From Defluviitaleaceae bacterium (GTDB lineage Bacteria > Bacillota > Clostridia > Lachnospirales > WRAX01): a DNA stretch of 34,541 nt. Both the position numbers and the translations under genes were made by a program. Below are positions 6,789 to 34,541 of the stretch, in pieces. The stretch is from contig WQSI01000003.1 in the NCBI GenBank assembly GCA_009787945.1, positions 1-34,541 of the forward strand, given 5' to 3'. Below the pieces are notes generated by a model. The model did no database searches and had not been told where the DNA came from. It was given only the letters and a program-made list of their open reading frames with translations. Numbering within the stretch: the first letter of the stretch is position 1; the number at the start of each line of letters is the position of its first letter.

Positions 6789-7064
6789 GTGAAGGCCTAT
6801 ATAGAAGAAAGAGCCGTAGAAGTTGCAAACTTCATCGTCGGAAGCAACGCCACAGTGCGGGAAACCGCAAGGCAGTTTGGCATTTCAAAGTCAACTGTTC
6901 ATAAAGACGTTACAGAAAGACTACTGAGAATCAACCCTAAATTGGCTAACCAGGCTAAAAAAGTTTTAGAGGTTAACAAAAGTGAGCGGCATATTAGGGG
7001 CGGCATGGCGACTAAGGAAAAGTACATGGCAGCTTCTGGTAGAGGGCCTGGCAGAATACATTAA
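6789..7064 (+). CDS. spoIIID: Sporulation transcription regulator SpoIIID
   Basis: MKAYIEERAVEVANFI...ATVRETARQFGISKSTVHKDVTERL...NKSERHIRGGMATKEKY; RBS AAGGGGG. Confidence 0.97.
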   Translation: MKAYIEERAVEVANFIVGSNATVRETARQFGISKSTVHKDVTERLLRINPKLANQAKKVLEVNKSERHIRGGMATKEKYMAASGRGPGRIH

Positions 7065-7067
7065 GAA

Positions 7068-7104
7068 CAAATGGTGGTTGCCCTGTTGGGGTGCCGCCAT
7101 TTTT
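7068..7104 (+). terminator. Intrinsic terminator
   Basis: AAATGGTGG...CCGCCATTTTT hairpin directly after the spoIIID stop. Confidence 0.65.
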
Positions 7105-7134
7105 AAATTTAGAGGGCTAATGTTAATAAAGTGC

Positions 7135-7163
7135 TGGACTTTATTTAGATGCTGTGGTATAAT
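7135..7163 (+). promoter_or_regulatory. Sigma-A promoter
   Basis: TGGACT-17 bp-TATAAT with extended TG. Confidence 0.6.
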
Positions 7164-7194
7164 TCAGGCAATTAAAAGTGCAGGAGGACACAAA

Positions 7195-7755
7195 ATGAAT
7201 GAGGTATTGAAAGCTATCGAAACCCGTTTTTCAAACCGAGGTTTTAAAGGGGATAAAATTGATGAGGACAAGATGAAAGCAATTGCGAAGGCGGCTTTGC
7301 ACGCGCCCTCTGCCATTAACCGACAGCCTTGGAGGTTGATTGTTATAAATGACAAGGATATTGTTTCAAAGCTTGATGATTCTGCGTTGGTTCACATTAA
7401 ATCCTTGAAAGACCAGAGCTTTTACAACCGTATCATGGAAAGGGGAGGTAAGGTTTTTTATGATGCCCCAGCCCTATATTTGATACTAAAGGAGAAGGGC
7501 TGGAGATGGTCGGAAATGGATGCAGGGATAATGACCCAAAATATAACCCTTGCCGCTCACTCTCTTGGGCTGGATTCTGTTATTGTTGCCACGGCAGACT
7601 TTGCCTTTCAAGGGGAAGATTCGGAGGAGATAAAGAAGCTCATAAAATGGTCAGAGCCTGAGAAATGGGAGTTTGCCATGGGCGTTCTGGTTGGAGAAGG
7701 AACGAATAAGAAAGACCCACATGAAATTGACTGGGAAAAAGTGGTATTTGTTTAA
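7195..7755 (+). CDS. Nitroreductase family protein
   Basis: AIETRFSNRGF, APSAINRQPW, DAGIMTQNITLAAHSLGLDS; ATG at 7195 with RBS AGGAGG. Confidence 0.9.
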   Translation: MNEVLKAIETRFSNRGFKGDKIDEDKMKAIAKAALHAPSAINRQPWRLIVINDKDIVSKLDDSALVHIKSLKDQSFYNRIMERGGKVFYDAPALYLILKEKGWRWSEMDAGIMTQNITLAAHSLGLDSVIVATADFAFQGEDSEEIKKLIKWSEPEKWEFAMGVLVGEGTNKKDPHEIDWEKVVFV

Positions 7756-9963: not shown

Positions 9964-12900
9964 TTTGCCTTATGGGCTGTGATTATGGTGTGGCTACCTG
10001 CGTTTATGGTTATAACACAACCATCACCTGTAACATACCAATTCTTACCTTTCTTTTCAATGTTGGTCGCTGTAGCAATTTGCTCTCTACACCATTGTAC
10101 CACATCCACCCCACCCAAGTCTAGGTTTTTTCGCACCCGTTCTGAGCCAAGTTCTGTTGTTTGAAGTTTATCCAGGGGGATTTCGGGCTTTTGCGGCTCA
10201 TGCACAGGGGCTTCCCCTAAAATTCTACCAAGATATTTCCCTGTATATGAAATTTCTGTTGCCGCTACCTGCTCTGGCGTGCCTTGGGCGATGACCATAC
10301 CGCCGCCGCCGCCGCCTTCAGGCCCCATGTCAATAATATGGTCAGCGGTTTTGATAACGTCCAAATTATGCTCAATAACTATAACAGAGTTGCCCCCTTC
10401 AGCAAGCTGCTGTAAAATGTCCACAAGCTTATGAACATCCGCCATGTGCAGCCCTGTTGTTGGCTCGTCCAGCACATAAATCGTCCGCCCTGTTGACCTT
10501 TTGCTAAGCTCCGTAGCAAGCTTAACCCGCTGGGCTTCCCCTCCAGATAATGTTGTAGAGGACTGCCCAAGCTTCACATAACCCAGCCCAACATCCATAA
10601 GAGTCTGGACTTTATCCCGCAACCGCGGCAAATTTTCAAAAAAACTGTGGGCTTGCTCCACTGTCATATCAAGAACATCAGCGATTGTTGCCCCCTTATA
10701 TTTCACCTCTAAAGTTTCGCGGTTGTATCTCTTGCCGTGGCAAACCTCGCAAGGTACAAAAATATCAGGCAAAAAGTGCATTTCGATTTTGATGATGCCA
10801 TCTCCCGAACAGGCTTCGCAACGGCCGCCCTTCACATTAAACGAGAAACGCCCTTTTTGGTAGCCCCGCACCTTAGCCTCTGGCACATTGGCGAAAATAT
10901 CCCGCACAAGGTCGAAAAGCCCTGTGTATGTGGCTGGGTTTGAGCGAGGTGTGCGCCCAATGGGGCTTTGGTCTATGTTGATAATTTTGTCAAGATGCTC
11001 CTGCCCTGTTAAATCTTCATGTTTGCCTGGTTTGCCCTTGGCACGGTTTAAATCCCGCGCAAGCCGCTTGTAAAGCACTTGATTAATCAAAGAGCTTTTG
11101 CCAGAGCCGCTAACCCCAGTAATTGCAACAAAGAGCCCCAAGGGAATGTCCACATCAATATTCTTCAAATTGTTTTCTTGCGCCCCAATAATGCGTAGTT
11201 GCTTTTCGGTGACTTGTCTGCGCTCCTTAGGCACTTCAATTGCCATGCGCCCGCTCATATAAGCCCCTGTCACGCTGTTTTCATCATTTAATATGCCGTC
11301 AATGGTGCCAGAATAGACCACCTCACCGCCATGGCAGCCAGCCCCTGGCCCAATGTCCACAATATGGTCAGCTTCCCGCATGGTGTCCTCGTCATGTTCC
11401 ACCACAATCAGGGTGTTGCCTAGGTCGCGAAGGTGCTTTAAGGTCTTTAGCAGCTTGTCATTATCCCGCTGGTGAAGCCCGATAGAAGGCTCGTCCAAAA
11501 TATAAACAACACCAACAAGCCCAGAACCAATCTGGGTAGCAAGACGAATCCGCTGGGCCTCCCCTCCAGACAGGGTTGCCGCCGCCCGCGCCAAAGTAAG
11601 ATAGTCCAGCCCTACATCCACCAAAAAGCCTGCCCGCGCCTTAATCTCCTTTAGGATAAGCTCGGCAATCTGCGCTTGTTGGGGGGTCAAGGTCAGCTCG
11701 CGGAAAAACTGGGTCAGCTCCCCAACGGGCATGGTGGTAATGTCGGTAATGTTTACCCCGCCAACTGTCACTGCCAAAATCTCCTCCCGCAGACGTTTCC
11801 CGTGACAGGCAGGACATTCGATATTAGTGATAAACGCCTCATATGACTGCCTTGCGTAGTCGCTTGTGGTTTCCTTATACCGCCGCGCTAGATTATTAAC
11901 CAGCCCTTCCCACTGATGCATAAAAATCCGCGGGTTGCCCCTTGTGTCTGTATATTCAATGGGAAAAGCCTCATCCCCGCCATATAAAATAATCCTGCGG
12001 GTTTCAATAGGTATTTTTTTAAAAGGCACAAGCAGGCTGAAGTTGTAATGCTTAGCAAGATGAAGGATGAAATTCCCTCCCCAAGTGCCTGCATTCCCCG
12101 CTTGGTTGTACCCTGGGGCAACGATAGCCCCCGCCTGTATGGAAATATCAGGGTTTGGCACGATAAGCTCGGGGTCAAATTCCATTTTAAAACCAAGACC
12201 TGCACACTCTCCACAAGCCCCTTGAGGATTGTTAAAAGAGAACATTCGCGGCTCGATACTAGCAAGGGAAATGCCATGGTCAGGGCAGGCGAAGTTTTGA
12301 GAGAAACTCAAATCCTTCTCACCTCCCACATCCACCAGCAAAAGACCGTCAGTCAAAGCCATCACAGTTTCAACAGACTGGGACAGACGGGCTTCAATGC
12401 CCTTCTTCACCACAATGCGGTCAACCACAACCTCGATATTATGCCGCTTGTTTTTCTCAAGCTTTATAGGCTCGTCAAGCTCCATCACAGTGCCATTAAC
12501 GCGCACGCGGGCATAACCCTCCCGCTTTGCATCCTCAAGCACCTTCTGATGCTCCCCCTTGCGGTCACGTACCACAGGGGCAAGAAGCTGTATTCTCGAC
12601 CCTTCCTCAAGCTCCAATATCTTATCCACAATTTGGTCAACGGTCTGCCGCACAATCTCCTTACCGCATTTTGGGCAATGTGGCACACCCACCCGAGCAT
12701 AAAGCAAGCGCAGATAATCATAAATCTCCGTCACCGTTCCCACTGTGGAGCGAGGGTTCTGGTTCGTGCTTTTCTGGTCAATAGAAATGGCAGGTGACAG
12801 TCCCTCAATACTGTCCACATCAGGCTTTTCCATCTGCCCCAAAAACTGGCGGGCATAGCTGGACAAGCTCTCCATATACCGCCGCTGCCCCTCTGCATAC

Positions 12901-29480: not shown

Positions 29481-31841
29481 GTGATGGTGATTAGGATGCA
29501 AACAACCCAAACAAAAGAAACAGGAATAAAATTTAATATTACGCGGCGGCATTTGGTGGAATTTGCCCTGCTGGCAGGGTCATTCTTCGCCGCGCGGGCT
29601 GTGGTTTTCGGGGTGGCAAGCCCCTTCGCTCTTGTGTACATAGCAACATTTTTGTTTAACGGAAAAAAGTTTTACGCGGCGGCGTTCTTGTCGGCTCTAG
29701 GTTTATTTACCAACTTTTCAACACAGTATTCTATGCAGTATTTACTGGCAGTTGTGCTGATGTGCGTTGCAAATTTGCTGATGAGCCTGCGCCCAAAAAC
29801 AGGGCAGGACTGGGCAGCGTTAACCCAAGGCTTAACAGCATCAATATCCCTTGCAATTTCAGGGTTTGTGCTGATTATACTTCGTGGTTTCGACCTTTAC
29901 CAAATTGCCGTCACAATTTTAGAGGGAGGGTTGGTTTTCGCCATGGCAATTGTAGCGTCCAAAGCCATGACCGCCATAGCCCCTGGTTATCGGCGGCGGG
30001 GCGCGCTAACCAATGAGGAGCTAATGTCTGCGCTGTTCCTTGCCGCAATTGTTGTTGTGGGCATGGCAGACATTCATTTGTGGCTTGTTTCCCTGCGCCA
30101 TGTTGCCGCCTTTTTAATCATATTGTTGGCAAGTATCAGCGGCGGGGCTATGGTTGGGGCTGTCAGCGGTATGCTATTGGGTTTTTTGCTTAATATTACA
30201 GGGTTTGAGTACATATTTTTCGCGGTGTTATTAGGAGTTTCGGGCTTGGCAGGGGGGCTGGCAAAAAATCACGGAAAAATCCCTATTCTGATTGCTTTTA
30301 CAGCAGCTTTAACCCTTGCCGCCCTTTACTTTGACTTAACGCTGTTTTCGTGGCAATCGCTGGCATCACTGACCGTTGCCGTTGCAGTGTTCTTGGCTCT
30401 GCCAAAAAGATTTTCAACAAATATCAGCGTTAATGCGGGTTCTGCCAATCTGCCCCAAACTGAGTATTTAGAGCGTGTGCGGGAGCAGGTGTTGGGGCGT
30501 GTTTACAATATCGCTGGGGGCTACGGGAAATTAGCGAAAATTTTTGAAAACCGTGTGGAAGCAAAAGGGGTTCAGGTTAGCACGGTGGACAAGCTTGTAA
30601 AATCTGCCCAAGAGGCTGTTTGCCTAGGTTGCAGCCGTCTGGATTTTTGCTGGAAGGACAGACATGGACAGTCCTGGGCGTTTATGGACGAAATCGTCCT
30701 CAAGGCGCAAAAGCGCGGCAAATTGCACATGGAGGATGCTCCTAAGGAGTTTTATAACCAATGCACCAACGCCCCTGACTATATGGCTCATCTTGGCTCT
30801 GCATTAGAAAAAGATATTTTGTCACAGGAGTGGCAACAAAAGGTCGTGGAAGCAAAGTCAACAATTTACCATCAATTTTCAGGTTTGTCTGCGGTTATGT
30901 ATGAGTTTGCTGTAGAATTATCGACAATCCTTAACTTTCAAAAAGATTTGGAAGATAGGATTTTACAAGAATTTGCAAAAGAAAAAGTGGAGGTGGAAAA
31001 TTTGATAGTTATTGAAAACACATTGGGCAAGTACGAAATTAGCCTAACCCACAAAGGTCGGCGGGGCGAGCCGAAATTTGCAGGGCGCATTGGTGAGATA
31101 ATTTCACAAATTTGCGGCAGGCAAATGGAGCTTGTGGAAGAAAAGTATGCAGGGCGGGTGGTGCATCTGGACTTTCTTGAAAGGGAGAAGTTTTATATTA
31201 ACAGCGGCATCGCCAAAACCAACAAGGGCGGGCTTGCCCAATCTGGTGACAGCTTTTCCCTTGTGCAACTGCGGGATGGCAGGCTTATTGCCGCTTTATC
31301 CGACGGCATGGGCAGCGGAGAAAGGGCAAAAGAAGGCAGCGAAGCGGCAATTGAGCTTTTGGAAGAGCTAATGGAAAAAGGCTTTAAAAAGGACATTGCA
31401 ATAAAACTTATAAACTCTGCCCTTTTGCTAAAATCCAGTGACGAGTTTTTCTCAACCCTGGACATTTGTGTGGTTGACCTTAACACAGGGCTTTCAGAGT
31501 TTATGAAGATTGGCGCGTCTGCCAGTTACCTGCTTAGGGATGGCAAGGTGGAAGCAATTGGCTCTTGGACTTTGCCCGTGGGCATATTGGAAAGTGTTGA
31601 AATTGACACCTGTGAGCGTTATATAGCCCATGGGGACATTATTGTGATGATGACAGACGGGGTTGCCGATTCTGTTAAAAATGGCGAGGATGCCTGGTTA
31701 CGCCGTATTTTGGAAAATTTGCCCACCAAAAACCCTCAGGACGTTGCTGACCACATTTTGGAAGAAGCCCGCCGAAATTACCGTCATCAAATTAAGGATG
31801 ACATGACAGTCCTAGCTTTGAGAATACTTAACCGTAATTAG
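29481..31841 (+). CDS. spoIIE: Stage II sporulation protein E (PP2C phosphatase)
   Basis: About 10 N-terminal TM segments, CxxC...CW central region, SGDS, LSDGMGSG, TLD, MMTDGV, DDMTVL. Start could be 29481-29496. Confidence 0.93.
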   Translation: MMVIRMQTTQTKETGIKFNITRRHLVEFALLAGSFFAARAVVFGVASPFALVYIATFLFNGKKFYAAAFLSALGLFTNFSTQYSMQYLLAVVLMCVANLLMSLRPKTGQDWAALTQGLTASISLAISGFVLIILRGFDLYQIAVTILEGGLVFAMAIVASKAMTAIAPGYRRRGALTNEELMSALFLAAIVVVGMADIHLWLVSLRHVAAFLIILLASISGGAMVGAVSGMLLGFLLNITGFEYIFFAVLLGVSGLAGGLAKNHGKIPILIAFTAALTLAALYFDLTLFSWQSLASLTVAVAVFLALPKRFSTNISVNAGSANLPQTEYLERVREQVLGRVYNIAGGYGKLAKIFENRVEAKGVQVSTVDKLVKSAQEAVCLGCSRLDFCWKDRHGQSWAFMDEIVLKAQKRGKLHMEDAPKEFYNQCTNAPDYMAHLGSALEKDILSQEWQQKVVEAKSTIYHQFSGLSAVMYEFAVELSTILNFQKDLEDRILQEFAKEKVEVENLIVIENTLGKYEISLTHKGRRGEPKFAGRIGEIISQICGRQMELVEEKYAGRVVHLDFLEREKFYINSGIAKTNKGGLAQSGDSFSLVQLRDGRLIAALSDGMGSGERAKEGSEAAIELLEELMEKGFKKDIAIKLINSALLLKSSDEFFSTLDICVVDLNTGLSEFMKIGASASYLLRDGKVEAIGSWTLPVGILESVEIDTCERYIAHGDIIVMMTDGVADSVKNGEDAWLRRILENLPTKNPQDVADHILEEARRNYRHQIKDDMTVLALRILNRN

Positions 31842-31842
31842 G

Positions 31843-31871
31843 ACATATCCTCCAAAGTGAGGACATATACT
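31843..31871 (+). promoter_or_regulatory. Sigma-E-type promoter
   Basis: ACATAT...CATATACT with the same 20-nt CATA-to-CATA spacing as the spoIIID promoter. Confidence 0.55.
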
Positions 31872-31907
31872 TTTTCAACAAAGCTTGGATTTTTTGAAGG
31901 AGTTGCC

Positions 31908-32594
31908 ATGTCTGAACTTATACAAGTAATACTTATAAATCTAATTGTATCACTGGACAACATCGGTGTTATAGCCCTTGCCAGCCGCCATTTAGACCCA
32001 AAAAAAGCCAACACCGCCCGCTTGCTGGGGGTTTGGCTTTCCCTTGGTCTAAAACTGATATTTATTTTGCTTATCGGGCATTTGTTTACCATCACATGGC
32101 TGCACATCCGCCTAATTGGCGGGGCTATGCTGATTTATGTTATAATTGGTATGTTCCGCAGTGGCGACGACACCCCCAAGAAAACCCAGAAAAGCGGCGG
32201 CTTTTGGAAGGCCATGCTAATCATCATCGCCGCTGACATTTCCATGTCTTTGGACAATGTAATCGCCGTTTTGTCCATTGTGGCAGACGATGCAGGCAAC
32301 GTGTCCATGCAAGGGATGACCATGGCGTTTTTGGGGCTAATAATCTCCGTTCCTGTTCTGCTAATCGGTTCGGAAGCCATTATAAAGCTGATAAACCGCT
32401 ATAAAGCCCTTTTCGCAATTGCAACAGGCTACCTGGGTTACATTGCAGCCAACATGATTTTTGAGGACCACTTGCTTGAAAGCTTCTTCAACTTCTTGCA
32501 ATTCCCCTTCGCGCCCCAATTATCCATGATACTTGGCTTAGCAGTCGCGGTTGCTTGTTGGCTAACCTACAAAAACAAGCCCGTTGCCCACTAA
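31908..32594 (+). CDS. TerC/YjbE family membrane protein
   Basis: NLIVSLDNIGVIALA and ADISMSLDNVIAV; ATG at 31908 with RBS AAGGAG. Confidence 0.88.
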   Translation: MSELIQVILINLIVSLDNIGVIALASRHLDPKKANTARLLGVWLSLGLKLIFILLIGHLFTITWLHIRLIGGAMLIYVIIGMFRSGDDTPKKTQKSGGFWKAMLIIIAADISMSLDNVIAVLSIVADDAGNVSMQGMTMAFLGLIISVPVLLIGSEAIIKLINRYKALFAIATGYLGYIAANMIFEDHLLESFFNFLQFPFAPQLSMILGLAVAVACWLTYKNKPVAH

Positions 32595-33084
32595 GACACA
32601 TATTTGCGCATGTTTTTCAAGGCGTTCTTCTCAAGGCGGCTTACCTGGGCTTGGCTTATGCCTATCTCATCAGCCACCTCCATTTGGGTCTTGCCCTCAA
32701 AAAAGCGCAGGCTGATAATGTGGCGTTCCCGCTCCCCAAGGCGTTTCATGGCTTCGGACAGGGAGATGTTTTCTAACCACATTGCGTCTGTGTCTTTTTC
32801 GTCTTTCAGCTGGTCCATTACAAAGAGGGCATCTGCCCCGTCGTTGTAAACAGGCTCGAAAAGGGAAACAGGCTCTTGTATGGCATCAAGGGCAAAAACC
32901 ACGTCTTGACGCTCAAGCCCAAGTTCTGCGGCAATTTCTTCCACTGTTGGCTCTTTGCTGTTTAGGTTTATCAGGCGTTCCTTGGCTTGCAGGGCTTTGT
33001 AGGCAATGTCCCGCAGGCTTCGGCTCACTCTTATAGAGTTGTTGTCGCGCAAATACCGCCTAATTTCACCTATTATCATTGGAA
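32591..33084 (-). CDS. sigG: 3' half of RNA polymerase sporulation sigma factor G (regions 2.4-4), split gene
   Basis: PMIIGEIRRYLRDNNSIRVSRSLRDIAYKALQ...FALDAIQEPVSLFEPVYNDG...GKTQMEVADEIGISQAQVSRLEK is diagnostic of SigG rather than SigF. The N-terminal ~95 aa are absent and there is no RBS before the in-frame ATG at 33094. Confidence 0.93.
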
Positions 33085-33104
33085 TGAATGTCATTATGAG
33101 AAAT
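33063..33104. other. Putative serine-recombinase hybrid attachment site
   Basis: Imperfect inverted repeat (13 of 20 pairs by manual count) centred on TT (minus strand, 33084-33083), exactly where SigG similarity begins. Confidence 0.7.
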
Positions 33105-33108
33105 ATAA

Positions 33109-34488
33109 CTACACATCGAATTTATAAAACACCTCAATTTCGTCATCGGTAATCACAATTCTTTCAACACAGGAGCGGATTATGTTTTTTTGCTCTTGTT
33201 TTGTCATGTATTCCCAAGTTTCTTCAAGGGTTTCCAAGGTTTTTTTGACACTTTCAATTTTCCCTGCAATAACATTGCGCTCTTGCTCTGTGGTTATTTG
33301 GGTTTGGATTTTTGCCAGTTGCTTTTGATGCTCTTTTATAGTGTCCAGCAGTATTTCGTTGCCATTGTCAGCGTAAACATTGTAAAGCCGCTTGATTTTT
33401 TTTGCAACATCCTCATATCTGCCCCGCAAAACCTCCAGGACAGATTGGGCAGTTGCCCGAATGTCATCAACCTTTTTTTGTTTTAAAGAAAAGGAAAATA
33501 AATCCCCAATGACGATGCTTTCAACATCCCTCGCCCATTGCATCTTATTATTACAGTCTGTGTCTTTCATCAAGTGAGCCTTGCTTTTATCCCTAGAATA
33601 GCAAAGGATTTTGCAGTCGTGTTTGCCCCATTTTTGATAGCGCATTTTTGCCCCGCATTTGCCGCAGACCATCAGCCCCGTAAACAAATAACCCCCAGAG
33701 CTAACACGGCTGATTGAACGCTCTGCCATATAATCCATAGCCTTATTATAAATTTCCAAACTTACTATTGGTTCATGCTTCCCTAAAAATTCCTCATCAT
33801 TATAAATTATGTAGCCTGCGTTAGACTTGCGCTCCAAAATTTGAATGGCAAGCTTTTCATATTTCAAGCCCAATATTTGGGCGATTTTGCTGGTGGAATA
33901 GCCCTCTAAATACAAATCATAAATTTTGCGGACGGTTTCCGCATCTTTGTTCGGCACAAGAATCCCCTGCTCTTTGTCGTAGTCATAGCCGAAAGGTATG
34001 CGCCCGCCTCCCATCCAAAACCCCGCCTTTACCCGCTCTCTCATGCCCATTCTTGTCCGTTCACGGATGTTTTCCCGCTCAAGCTGGGCAAAGGCAGACA
34101 AGATGCCCAGCATCAAGCGCCCTAAAGGGGTTGATGTGTCCATGCTTTCCTGTGTGGAAATAAAATCAACCCCGTGGGGATTGAAAACATCTTCAATCAA
34201 ATACAGAGTGTCTTTTTGGCTGCGGGAAAGCCTGTCAAGTTTATAAACCAACACGGTGTTGATAGCTTTATTTTTCACATCAGAAATCAGCCGCTGAAGC
34301 TCAGGCCTTTCCATATTGCTGCCTGTGTACCCGCCGTCAATATAAAAGTCAAAATTTTTAATGCCCTTGGAAGCGCAATGACCTGCCAGCATCTCTTTTT
34401 GGGCATCAATAGAATAACCCTCTTCCCGCTGGGCATCTGTGGAAACCCTAATATAAATCCCTGCTTTGCCATGCACCACAGACCTCAC
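33109..34488 (-). CDS. Large serine recombinase (SpoIVCA-like)
   Basis: YIRVST catalytic Ser, VYKLDRLSRS, FAQLERE, PFGY recombinase domain, HEPIV, CGKCG Zn ribbon, coiled coil. The real start may be GTG at 34479 or 34476. Confidence 0.95.
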   Translation of the reverse strand: MRSVVHGKAGIYIRVSTDAQREEGYSIDAQKEMLAGHCASKGIKNFDFYIDGGYTGSNMERPELQRLISDVKNKAINTVLVYKLDRLSRSQKDTLYLIEDVFNPHGVDFISTQESMDTSTPLGRLMLGILSAFAQLERENIRERTRMGMRERVKAGFWMGGGRIPFGYDYDKEQGILVPNKDAETVRKIYDLYLEGYSTSKIAQILGLKYEKLAIQILERKSNAGYIIYNDEEFLGKHEPIVSLEIYNKAMDYMAERSISRVSSGGYLFTGLMVCGKCGAKMRYQKWGKHDCKILCYSRDKSKAHLMKDTDCNNKMQWARDVESIVIGDLFSFSLKQKKVDDIRATAQSVLEVLRGRYEDVAKKIKRLYNVYADNGNEILLDTIKEHQKQLAKIQTQITTEQERNVIAGKIESVKKTLETLEETWEYMTKQEQKNIIRSCVERIVITDDEIEVFYKFDV

Positions 34489-34541
34489 CTCTGTTCTGAC
34501 AGCCTTTGGTTTACAGCTCTAATAACCTCCGAAACCACGCC
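34485..34541 (-). CDS. Possible C-terminal end of an element gene upstream of the recombinase
   Basis: Open frame GVVSEVIRAVNQRLSEQR* whose TGA overlaps the recombinase RBS/start. Confidence 0.35.
   Translation of the reverse strand, partial: GVVSEVIRAVNQRLSEQR

What the first reader, a model, noticed from the sequence alone, without database searches (positions are those of the whole stretch)
32591..34541. Forespore sigma factor gene sigG split by a serine-recombinase element (skin-like)
Seen: an intact, stop-free 3' half of sigG starts abruptly inside the conserved FSTYAV-PM motif (here reading MTFI-PM). It has no RBS and lies 25 bp downstream of an intact large serine recombinase. Established: the classic developmentally excised elements (skin in sigK, SP-beta in spsM, elements in spoVFB and gerE) interrupt mother-cell genes, so the spore genome keeps the element. 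SigG acts in the forespore. Inference: if this is the only sigG, excision must happen in the germ-line compartment. The element would then have to re-integrate, persist as a circle, or otherwise be reversible to be inherited. That would be a DNA-rearrangement switch controlling late forespore development. I do not recall such a case being described but cannot search the literature.
Basis: partly seen in the sequence, partly recalled or inferred. Interest (0 to 1): 0.93.

Follow-up and report, generated by a model that had tools for sequence, protein, structure and literature searches.

The report
Forespore sigma gene split by recombinase element
The gene for the spore-side sigma factor SigG is cut in two by an 8.4-kb element carrying a DNA-cutting recombinase, and the same recombinase family sits beside SigG halves in many gut Clostridia and large phages, which is odd because the developing spore is the cell line that must keep the element.

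Summary
Confirmed. Window 32591-33082(-) is the 3' part of sigG (SigG profile 92-254). It lies 26 nt after an intact large serine recombinase (33109-34488). The 5' part (profile 2-97) lies on contig C40, whose start overlaps the window's end by exactly 78 bp. The halves are therefore direct and about 8.44 kb apart. Joined by coordinates at the CC of the Pro codon in FSTYAV-P-M, they give one open frame, 253 of 266 residues identical to a sister species' intact SigG. No other sigG is in the assembly (78% complete). SpoIIE, SigE, SigF, SpoIVA, Gpr and SASPs are intact.

This is not a one-off. In 32 of 48 loci with a recombinase at least 50% identical, a sigG half flanks it at the same codon. One is a cultured Lachnospiraceae isolate with a roughly 170-kb prophage between the halves. 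Unintegrated attP forms occur in phage contigs. A 43-aa ORF coupled to the recombinase is predicted to bind it, making it a candidate directionality factor.

Excision timing, compartment and re-entry are not shown; only contigs could be laid, and none showed this genome's rejoined form. Eight literature searches found no split sigG.

The parts
32591..33082 (-). 3' part of sigG, from the Pro codon of FSTYAV-P-M to the stop (163 codons; sigma regions 2.4 to 4)
   Evidence: NCBIfam SigG models match over positions 92-254 and 95-257. It is 95.7% identical over 164 aa to the intact SigG of sister genome G001. Against G002's split copy, pN is 0.054 and pS 0.666.
33081..33082 (-). Inferred crossover dinucleotide CC (GG on the + strand), at the centre of attR
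   Evidence: It is the centre of symmetry of the natural attP sites seen in L067, L122 and L123. It is shared by attB, attL and attR in all loci aligned. The crossover position itself is an inference.
33083..33108 (-). P arm of attR, the element-side half-site between the recombinase stop and the core
   Evidence: It aligns with the arm next to the recombinase in 10 other 3'-half loci. It mirrors the P' arms of the attL sites.
33109..34488 (-). Large serine recombinase, 459 aa, intact
   Evidence: Pfam Resolvase 4e-41, Recombinase 1.5e-07, Zn_ribbon_recom 2.7e-08. The closest solved N-domain is the TP901-1 integrase, 3e-40. Orthologues are 84% to 50% identical in 48 loci.
34488..34541 (-). Last 18 codons of a 43-aa ORF (p43). 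It continues on contig C40 (positions 25-153), and its stop overlaps the recombinase GTG start.
   Evidence: Translation; 78-bp contig overlap. Homologues lie upstream of the recombinase in the 24 other loci aligned. No Pfam family matched. Predicted to bind the recombinase.
31857..32594 (+). Flanking host gene, a convergent membrane protein (TerC-like by eye). Its stop codon overlaps the sigG stop.
   Evidence: Its orthologues in G001 and G002 lie in other contexts, and their homology ends at the stop.
29481..31841 (+). spoIIE, intact (context: a sporulation-competent genome)
   Evidence: TIGR02865 at 516.2 bits, above the cut-off of 490.8.

Best explanation
The window's end holds the right end of an element of about 8.44 kb. 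It is phage-derived but no longer a phage, and it sits inside sigG at the Pro codon of FSTYAV-P-M. On the sigG strand the order is: sigG 5' half (contig C40), P' arm, a DUF3899 membrane gene, a five-gene opp-like transporter operon, the 43-aa ORF p43, the large serine recombinase, the P arm, and the sigG 3' half (window). While the element is integrated, no SigG can be made. The recombinase, helped by p43 acting as a directionality factor, recombines attL with attR at the central CC. This removes the element as a circle and rebuilds an intact sigG behind its own sigma-F-type promoter. SigG is needed only in the developing spore. My preferred reading is therefore that excision is tied to sporulation and happens in the cell line that becomes the spore, and that the circle is re-integrated by the recombinase alone after germination. 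Shown here: the split, the in-frame join, the conserved att architecture, natural attP and integrated forms in the family, and conservation of both halves. Inferred: that this copy still excises, when and where it does so, the role of p43, and how the element returns to the germ line.
For: (1) The 5' and 3' halves match SigG profile positions 2-97 and 92-254. Contig C3's end overlaps C40's start by exactly 78 bp. An 8554-nt contig from a separate assembly of run X1 covers window 33637-34541 and runs about 7.6 kb further. (2) The coordinate-only join is 792 nt with one terminal stop, and 253 of 266 residues match G001's intact SigG. (3) This genome's P' arm scores 16 of 24 against the consensus of 24 other attL arms, whose own scores range from 10 to 22. 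A score that high occurred as the best of 96 positions in 0.5% of 3000 random 120-nt pieces of the genome. (4) Natural attP sites with inverted arms matching at 16 to 21 of 21 positions lie just after the recombinase in L067, L122, L123, L125, L139 and L141. One phage group shows the same P arm followed either by P' (L125) or by the sigG 3' half (L133, L134). (5) In the family's 20 genomes, the recombinase (E<=1e-80) is present in 5. Four of those have a split sigG. Twelve of the 15 genomes without the recombinase have an intact sigG. (6) 32 of 48 loci with a recombinase at least 50% identical carry a sigG half broken at the same codon. (7) The 3' halves run to a normal stop in 10 of 11 loci. 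For window versus G002, dN/dS is about 0.03, while the two recombinases differ at 72 of 129 four-fold sites, a similarly deep divergence. (8) SpoIIE, SigE and SigF exceed their curated cut-offs. SpoIVA, Gpr and SASPs are intact. (9) The sigG promoter region (GTATA, 14 nt, GGAAAAAATA) is conserved between the split genomes G000 and G002 and the intact G001. (10) For p43 with the recombinase, ipSAE is 0.67 and the best of 3 controls is 0.00. That mark was reached by 58 of 80 solved complexes and 2 of 110 mismatched pairs, counts that hold only roughly because my own alignments were used. The runs agree in at least 66% of contacts, and the partner's pLDDT is at least 71. The contacts are residues 317-336, 417-440 and 449-458 of the recombinase, which flank its coiled coil.
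Against: Nothing shows that this copy excises. No sigma-F, -G, -E or -K-like motif was found within 400 nt upstream of the recombinase in this genome; an opp terminator-like hairpin lies just before p43. Among the 10 loci with the recombinase next to the 3' half, recombinase and sigG-half identities do not correlate (rho 0.07; 758 of 2000 permutations as high). Elements therefore move between hosts, and some insertions may be too young for decay to show. One 3' half (L048) has an aberrant C-end. In G003, rated 100% complete, no 5' half was found. The assembly is 78% complete, so a second sigG cannot be excluded. Excision in the spore line would strip the element from the germ line. No mechanism of return is shown, and the element carries an opp operon that would leave with it. 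p43's stop overlaps the recombinase start, so the two may always be made together, which sits badly with a recombinase-only re-integration step. The interface prediction is a model's confidence, not a measurement.
Confidence: 0.55

Rival explanations
1. Sporulation-blocking lysogeny or phase variation. The element family simply uses sigG as an attachment site. Carriers cannot complete sporulation. Excision is stochastic or stress-induced as for any prophage, and only cured cells, which have lost the element, make spores. No developmental programme and no re-integration are involved. The mini-elements are stranded remnants that survive in vegetatively transmitted gut lineages.
For: The family includes full prophages and free phage genomes: a roughly 170-kb prophage in G041, and attP forms inside 65-190-kb viral contigs. 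There is no recombinase-host co-divergence among the 10 loci with the recombinase next to the 3' half. No sporulation-type promoter lies near p43 and the recombinase in this genome. The source habitat is a termite gut, where symbionts can pass between hosts without spores (recalled). A 2026 review lists phage sigma factors that lower spore yield (passage read).
Against: Mini-elements of 2.55 kb (G002) and 8.44 kb (this genome) carry no phage genes, yet keep an intact recombinase, p43 and both att arms. Both sigG halves and other sporulation genes remain intact, although the recombinases have diverged as deeply as sigG itself. A sigma-F-like motif (G-N-ATA, 15 nt, GGGAATACT) precedes the small ORF and recombinase in 11 of 11 loci of the mouse Lachnospiraceae clade, although these loci are close kin.
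Confidence: 0.27
2. Dead gene. sigG was inactivated for good, the recombination system no longer works here, and the organism no longer sporulates. The halves only look intact because too little time has passed.
For: The excised form was not seen. The left end abuts host-like DNA, so the element has been rearranged. The habitat may relax selection for spores (recalled).
Against: For window versus G002, dN/dS is about 0.03 with synonymous sites near saturation. The P' arm still fits the family consensus at 16 of 24. The recombinase and p43 are intact. SpoIIE, SigE, SigF, SpoIVA, Gpr and SASPs are intact.
Confidence: 0.1
3. Assembly or binning artefact. The two halves come from different organisms, or from a chimeric contig, and the real genome has an intact sigG.
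For: The assembly is a fragmented metagenome bin: 174 contigs, N50 13 kb. The contig breaks right at the recombinase start.
Against: There is an exact 78-bp overlap between C3 and C40, and no other contig end overlaps either. Separate contigs of run X1 (10154 nt and 8554 nt, 0 differences) and of a second sample, X2 (623 nt across attR, 0 differences), carry the integrated form. G002 has both halves 2,553 bp apart on one 154.8-kb contig.
Confidence: 0.02
4. Split sigma factor. The two halves are translated separately and assemble into a working SigG without any DNA rearrangement.
For: Both halves are open, and the 3' half begins with an ATG.
Against: The break lies inside the conserved FSTYAVPMIIGEIRRY block of the sigma-2 domain, not in a linker (domain assignment recalled). 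No ribosome-binding site precedes the ATG (by eye). That ATG is part of the att arm, which is conserved for recombination. In G011 the 3' frame starts directly at M-P-M.
Confidence: 0.02

Closest known systems
skin element in sigK (Bacillus subtilis, Clostridioides difficile)
   Same: A sporulation sigma-factor gene is split in its coding region. [quoted passage not shown] Precise excision rebuilds the gene. Elements vary in size and share little beyond the recombinase (Galperin preprint, passages read; Serrano 2016, passages read).
   Different: The target there is the mother-cell sigma factor, so excision happens in a terminal cell and the spore keeps the element. Here the target is sigG, listed as 'forespore only' (table read). 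This recombinase's best NCBIfam hits are CcrB over its N-domain and XisF, all below their cut-offs. No comparison with SpoIVCA itself was made.
SPbeta prophage in spsM, with SprA and SprB
   Same: A very large temperate phage uses a large serine recombinase to sit inside a sporulation gene, and a small directionality factor controls excision (passages read). The roughly 170-kb prophage in G041 has a similar look, with nucleotide-metabolism and replication genes and long tail genes, judged by eye.
   Different: SPbeta's excision during sporulation is confined to the mother cell. The attachment site and target differ. Homology of the phages themselves was not tested.
gin element in gerE of Bacillus cereus ATCC 10987
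   Same: A non-phage intervening element whose recombinase (GirC) and small factor (GirX) suffice for gene reconstitution (abstract and passages read). This is the closest analogue for the phage-gene-free 2.55-kb and 8.44-kb elements.
   Different: gin is 28.6 kb, carries three recombinases, and sits in a mother-cell gene.
Reversible active lysogeny (comK prophage of Listeria; SpyCIM1 between mutS and mutL of Streptococcus pyogenes)
   Same: An element interrupts a gene in a non-terminal cell, leaves without killing the host, and returns (passages read). This is the behaviour a germ-line sigG element would need.
   Different: Those are not part of a developmental programme, and I recall their recombinases being of other types. 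Return of the sigG element is not shown.
fdxN element and XisF in Anabaena heterocysts
   Same: Developmental excision by a large serine recombinase. XisF is a full-length NCBIfam hit: 123 bits over residues 12-447.
   Different: The score is far below the 375-bit cut-off. That system works in a terminal cell type in a different phylum.

Membership tests
Sporulation-gene intervening elements (skin / SPbeta / vfbin / gin class) | Interrupts the coding sequence of a sporulation gene, leaving two otherwise intact fragments | tested here: met
   The halves match SigG profile positions 2-97 and 92-254, and neither contains a stop.
Sporulation-gene intervening elements (skin / SPbeta / vfbin / gin class) | Encodes a large serine recombinase, usually at an edge of the element | tested here: met
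   The Resolvase, Recombinase and Zn_ribbon_recom domains are present. The gene ends 26 nt from the core.
Sporulation-gene intervening elements (skin / SPbeta / vfbin / gin class) | attL and attR share a short core, and removal at the core restores one in-frame gene | tested here: met
   The shared core is CC-N-ATGA. The coordinate-only join is 792 nt with one stop, and 253 of 266 residues match an intact orthologue.
Sporulation-gene intervening elements (skin / SPbeta / vfbin / gin class) | A small recombination directionality factor encoded in the element | tested here: inconclusive
   A conserved 43-63-aa ORF lies upstream of the recombinase in the 25 loci aligned. The predicted interface scores ipSAE 0.67 against a best control of 0.00. 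No activity was tested.
Sporulation-gene intervening elements (skin / SPbeta / vfbin / gin class) | Excision observed during sporulation | not testable with these tools
   Only contigs of two metagenome runs could be laid, and both show the integrated form.
Sporulation-gene intervening elements (skin / SPbeta / vfbin / gin class) | The target gene is expressed in the terminal mother cell, so the spore genome keeps the element | tested here: not met
   The target is sigG by NCBIfam. sigG is described as forespore-only (table read; passage).
Large serine recombinases | N-terminal resolvase catalytic domain with the conserved Ser/Arg block, followed by the recombinase domain and the zinc ribbon with a coiled coil | tested here: met
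   Pfam hits. Y12, R14, V15, S16 and T17 are invariant in 32 aligned sequences. The N-domain matches the TP901-1 integrase at 3e-40. The coiled coil itself was not modelled separately.
SigG (NCBIfam TIGR02850 / NF006071) | Full-length match above the curated cut-off | tested here: inconclusive
   Each half alone falls below the cut-off: 157 and 290 bits for TIGR02850 (cut-off 457); 165 and 291.5 bits for NF006071 (cut-off 372). The joined protein was compared only with G001's intact SigG, giving 253 of 266 identical. It was not scanned against the models.
Reversible active lysogeny | The element excises without killing the cell and later re-integrates at the same site | not testable with these tools
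   No time series or raw reads were available.

The most novel reading that the evidence does not exclude
A programmed DNA rearrangement in the bacterial germ line. The element is cut out of sigG in the developing spore, under sigma-F control in at least the Lachnospiraceae clade, and this switches on late forespore gene expression. It rides in the dormant spore as a non-replicating circle. At germination the recombinase alone puts it back into sigG. On this reading it is a reversible developmental DNA switch, domesticated from large sigG-targeting temperate phages.
Probability: 0.25. Interest if true: 0.95.

Novelty: new variant of a known kind. Interest (0 to 1): 0.8.

Why it matters
Every described sporulation-gene intervening element that I could find in print sits in a mother-cell gene. 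The accepted reasoning is that excision in a cell that dies leaves the spore's copy untouched (passages read). A conserved, widespread family of elements and large phages that targets sigG breaks that rule. One possibility is that the forespore rearranges its own heritable genome and restores it afterwards. The other is that these phages and their remnants act as on/off switches for sporulation in gut Clostridia, which would bear on how gut bacteria transmit and persist. A cultured carrier, the isolate behind L068, makes the question directly testable. The recombinase, p43 and the roughly 21-bp att arms also make up a compact recombination unit with a defined natural target.

Tried and rejected
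Reads. The look-up of sequencing runs found two termite-gut metagenome runs, X1 (possibly the source) and X2. Read laying could use only their contigs. It returned no joints and no rejoined sigG of this genome. The loose end at window 33079 (2 records) reads as an intact sigG of another organism: it differs from this genome's 5' half, and 14 of the 20 records laid for X1 were only 90-95% alike. It is therefore no evidence of excision here. Contigs cannot show rare forms, so this result says nothing either way.

A decayed P' arm in sister genome G001 downstream of its intact sigG. I suspected one by eye. The best 24-mer scored 13 of 24, and 29% of random 120-nt pieces scored as high. Dropped.

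Co-divergence of element and host. It is not supported for the 10 loci with the recombinase next to the 3' half (rho 0.07). It is supported for the 24 loci with 5' halves (rho 0.78; 0 of 2000 permutations as high), but that result is driven by one clade of close kin.

Sporulation-type promoters upstream of the recombinase. Strict patterns for sigma F, G, E, K and A were run over 45 loci. Only the sigma-F pattern exceeded shuffles (4 observed, 0.125 expected), and all four hits fall in one clade. This genome had none.

Synteny with other genera. No homologue of the membrane gene, oppA or the upstream ORFs appeared within about 1.5 kb of sigG in 20 loci. The ancestral layout therefore could not be fixed.

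Loci without a sigG half. Of the 16 recombinase loci with no sigG half, I examined 14 (L047 and L083 were left out). L067 holds an intact attP. In 12 of the other 13, no att-like arm follows the recombinase, or the contig ends too soon (L065, a short contig, had no ORF to judge). Their targets remain unknown.

Abe et al. 2013 (Mol Microbiol), cited for in-silico lists of intervening elements, is not held. Suzuki 2019 says 'almost all' intervening elements are in mother-cell genes, so an exception may be in print where I could not look. Supplementary tables of the papers read were not opened.
Full report
**What the window is.** The window is the whole of contig C3 of a metagenome-assembled genome, G000. 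The assembly has 174 contigs, 1.78 Mb, N50 13 kb and 45% G+C, and is rated 78% complete with 0.4% contamination. The runs that hold this DNA are termite-gut metagenomes.

**Checking the observation.** ORF 32591-33094(-) begins MTFIPMIIGEIRRY. It matches the two NCBIfam SigG models only over their 3' two-thirds (positions 92-254 and 95-257, about 290 bits). SigF comes second at 192 bits. Fourteen nucleotides upstream of its ATG ends a 459-aa ORF (33109-34488) with the three Pfam domains of a large serine recombinase. Its N-domain is closest to the TP901-1 integrase among solved structures. The description is accurate.

**The other half.**
- A whole-genome search with the SigG model found the missing part on contig C40, at 7045-7332(-), profile positions 2-97.
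- Its ORF reads ...GVKFSTYAVPM and then runs 18 foreign codons to a stop. NCBIfam ranks SigG first for it.
- The last 78 bases of C3 are identical to the first 78 of C40, and no other contig end overlaps either. The two contigs are therefore neighbours.
- The halves lie on the same strand, about 8.44 kb apart.
- A separate assembly of run X1 has an 8554-nt contig that covers window 33637-34541 without a difference and continues about 7.6 kb beyond. That is long enough to reach the 5' half.
- Joining the halves by coordinates at the CC of the Pro codon gives 792 nt with a single terminal stop. Of 266 residues, 253 match the intact SigG of sister genome G001.

**No spare copy, and a sporulation-competent background.** The other sigma-like hits in G000 are SigF on C60 (325.5 bits, cut-off 321.45), SigE on C31 (371.5, cut-off 339), a FliA/WhiG type on C29, and a hit on C111 with a longer open frame (412 aa) that I took for the primary sigma factor without scanning it against the family models. 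SpoIIE in the window passes its cut-off. SpoIVA, Gpr and three SASP genes are intact. The assembly is incomplete, so a second sigG cannot be ruled out. However, G002 (94% complete) and five further carrier genomes, including an isolate, also have only the halves.

**Anatomy of the sites.** All junctions share CC-N-ATGA.
- On the element side, the arm next to the recombinase (P) and the arm after the 5' half (P') are inverted copies of each other, about 21 bp long.
- In natural unintegrated sites the two arms face each other across a four-base spacer with CC (or GG) at its centre. Examples are L067 (16 of 21 arm positions paired), L122 (21 of 21), L123 (17 of 21), and L125, L139 and L141 (16 or 17 of 21). 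For L121, L128 and L129 the scan found no convincing site.
- This genome's P' arm matches the consensus of 24 other arms at 16 of 24 positions, which is within their range of 10-22. A score that high was the best of 96 positions in only 0.5% of random 120-nt pieces of the genome.
- I infer that the central CC is the crossover dinucleotide, as is usual for this enzyme class (recalled).

**How widespread it is.**
- Within the family (20 genomes), recombinase orthologues occur in G000, G002, G003, G011 and G018. The first four have a split sigG. G018 (68% complete) shows no sigG part.
- Twelve of the 15 genomes without the recombinase have an intact sigG, and three show none.
- A scan of one genome per species returned 63 loci, of which 48 have a recombinase at least 50% identical. 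In 32 of those 48, a sigG half lies in the locus, broken at the same codon. Four of these loci look like the same stretches as G002, G003, G011 and G018 (equal contig lengths; sequences not compared) and are probably not extra cases.
- Hosts are labelled Oscillospiraceae, Lachnospiraceae, Monoglobaceae, Defluviitaleaceae and others, from termite, mouse, ruminant and other guts (record titles).
- Two layouts occur. In one the recombinase reads into the 3' half, as here. In the other it lies next to the 5' half on the opposite strand. The two layouts are intermixed in the recombinase tree.

**Origin in phages.** Element sizes are 2,553 bp in G002, about 8.44 kb here, about 9 kb in L075, 14.7 kb in L040, and about 169.6 kb in G041, a cultured Lachnospiraceae isolate by its record title.
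- The G041 interval holds 74 ORFs of 200 aa or more, of which only five have a counterpart in G000 (the recombinase itself and, by eye, nucleotide-metabolism and replication enzymes). By eye it includes polymerase, helicase, ribonucleotide reductase, terminase-like and very long tail-like genes.
- In IMG/VR, 80 of 423 relatives were kept. Four of them carry a sigG half at a contig edge. Nineteen have a p185-like gene directly after the recombinase, that is, across attP. Most of these lie deep inside contigs of 40-192 kb.
- One group shows the same P arm followed by P' in L125 and by the sigG 3' half in L133 and L134. Both states of the reaction therefore exist in nature.

**Accessory genes.**
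- A 43-aa ORF, p43, ends in the window (34488-34541), and its stop overlaps the recombinase start.
- Homologues of 42-63 aa lie upstream of the recombinase in the 24 other loci aligned. Mean column identity is 27%, and no Pfam family matches.
- A structure model places p43 against recombinase residues 317-336, 417-440 and 449-458, which flank the coiled coil. The score is ipSAE 0.67, with a best control of 0.00 from 3 controls. That mark was reached by 58 of 80 solved complexes and 2 of 110 mismatched pairs, counts that hold only roughly with my own alignments. The runs agree in at least 66% of contacts, and the partner's pLDDT is at least 71.
- I recall directionality factors of other large serine integrases binding in that region, so p43 is a candidate. 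Nothing more has been shown.
- A second conserved gene (185-203 aa, with a weak HNH_repeat hit below Pfam's cut-off) sits across attP from the recombinase in G002, L040, G041, G044 and L067. It is absent from G000.

**Selection.**
- Ten of the 11 3' halves run to a normal stop. L048 has an aberrant end.
- Between the window and G002, both split, pN is 0.054 and pS 0.666 (dN/dS about 0.03). Their recombinases differ at 72 of 129 four-fold sites.
- That fits long residence with both halves under constraint. It does not prove it, because recombinase and host-gene identities are uncorrelated among the 10 loci of this layout.

**Promoters.**
- The region upstream of sigG (GTATA, 14 nt, GGAAAAAATA) is conserved in G000, G001 and G002. 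It resembles the sigma-F-type sigG promoter tabulated for Epulopiscium (table read).
- In 11 of 11 loci of the mouse Lachnospiraceae clade, a G-N-ATA, 15 nt, GGGAATACT motif precedes the small ORF. These loci are close kin, so this counts as one observation.
- In eight termite-clade loci, a sigma-A-like TTGAAA / TATAAT pair lies between the small ORF and the recombinase (by eye).
- Nothing comparable was found in this genome.

**Literature.** Eight full-text searches found no report of an interrupted sigG. The passages read state that intervening elements sit in mother-cell genes and explain why. One paper says 'almost all', and its source paper is not held.

**Reading.** Most likely this is an excisable sigG-intervening element of phage descent. 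I put 0.55 on excision tied to sporulation that restores sigG in the spore line, and 0.27 on phage-style insertion that blocks sporulation until the element is lost. The remainder covers a dead gene, an artefact, or a split protein.

**Unexplained.** The element's cargo, the DUF3899 gene plus the opp operon, is the same DNA that lies just downstream of the intact sigG in G001 (79.7% identity over 6.7 kb). In this genome the sigG stop overlaps the stop of a convergent gene that sits elsewhere in G001 and G002. A short G+C-rich palindromic repeat lies downstream of both genes in G001, and it gives 24 hits on 14 contigs of G000. Repeat-mediated rearrangement may therefore have reshaped the locus, but I could not reconstruct the steps.

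Noticed in passing
G002:C6:21962-23197 and 40375-40629 (L117); G003:C54:3372-4595 and 11455-11736 (L116): spoIVA is also split in two relatives, by about 17 kb and about 7 kb. Each insert carries a different large serine recombinase-like ORF (683 aa and 527 aa). Only the G002 ORF hit this window's recombinase (27% identity over 206 aa); the G003 ORF was recognised by its N-terminal motif, by eye. In G002 the recombinase frame runs on into the spoIVA 3' part, and the insert holds what look like type I restriction-modification genes (by eye). G000's own spoIVA is intact.
   Followed up: partly
G000:C40:336-7016 compared with G001:C11:9-6684 (L032): The element's cargo (DUF3899 membrane gene plus a five-gene opp-like operon) is orthologous, at 79.7% nt identity, to the DNA immediately downstream of the intact sigG in the sister species. 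That species has no recombinase. How host flank came to lie inside the element is unexplained.
   Followed up: partly
window 32591-32594: The stop codons of the sigG 3' half and of the convergent membrane-protein gene overlap, with no spacer or terminator. In G001 and G002 that gene lies elsewhere, and its homology ends at the stop. The spot looks like a rearrangement breakpoint.
   Followed up: partly
L032:6684-6869 (G001), L035:920-942, and 14 contigs of G000: A G+C-rich palindromic repeat of about 25-35 bp lies downstream of sigG and downstream of the TerC-like gene in G001. It gives 24 hits on 14 contigs of G000. It is REP-like and may mediate rearrangements.
   Followed up: partly
L067:1300-1440: A 2.8-kb contig binned with a 'Tenericutes' genome holds the recombinase, an intact attP and the p203 gene. 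This is an unintegrated copy of a Lachnospiraceae-clade element, so the contig is probably mis-binned.
   Followed up: partly
L039, L040, L042-L046, L049 (200 nt upstream of the recombinase): Between the small ORF and the recombinase lies a sigma-A-like TTGAAA, 17 nt, TATAAT promoter. Just before it, at the end of the small ORF, lies a motif that resembles the outer part of the att P arm. It may be an autoregulatory binding site. Judged by eye only.
   Followed up: no
L033:12442-16245 (G003): The element next to G003's sigG 3' half carries a 1267-aa ORF rich in YD/RHS-type repeats, followed by a second partial copy (by eye). The contig ends there, and no 5' half of sigG was found in that genome.
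   Followed up: no
recombinase tree: Loci with the recombinase beside the 3' half and loci with it beside the 5' half on the other strand are interleaved among close relatives. Because the two att arms are inverted copies of each other, flipping the element's interior would convert one layout into the other. Not tested.
   Followed up: no
window 34464-34541 = G000:C40:1-78: The assembler broke the contig at a 78-bp stretch around the recombinase start. That points to a branch in the assembly graph, perhaps a related element or strain in the same sample.
   Followed up: no
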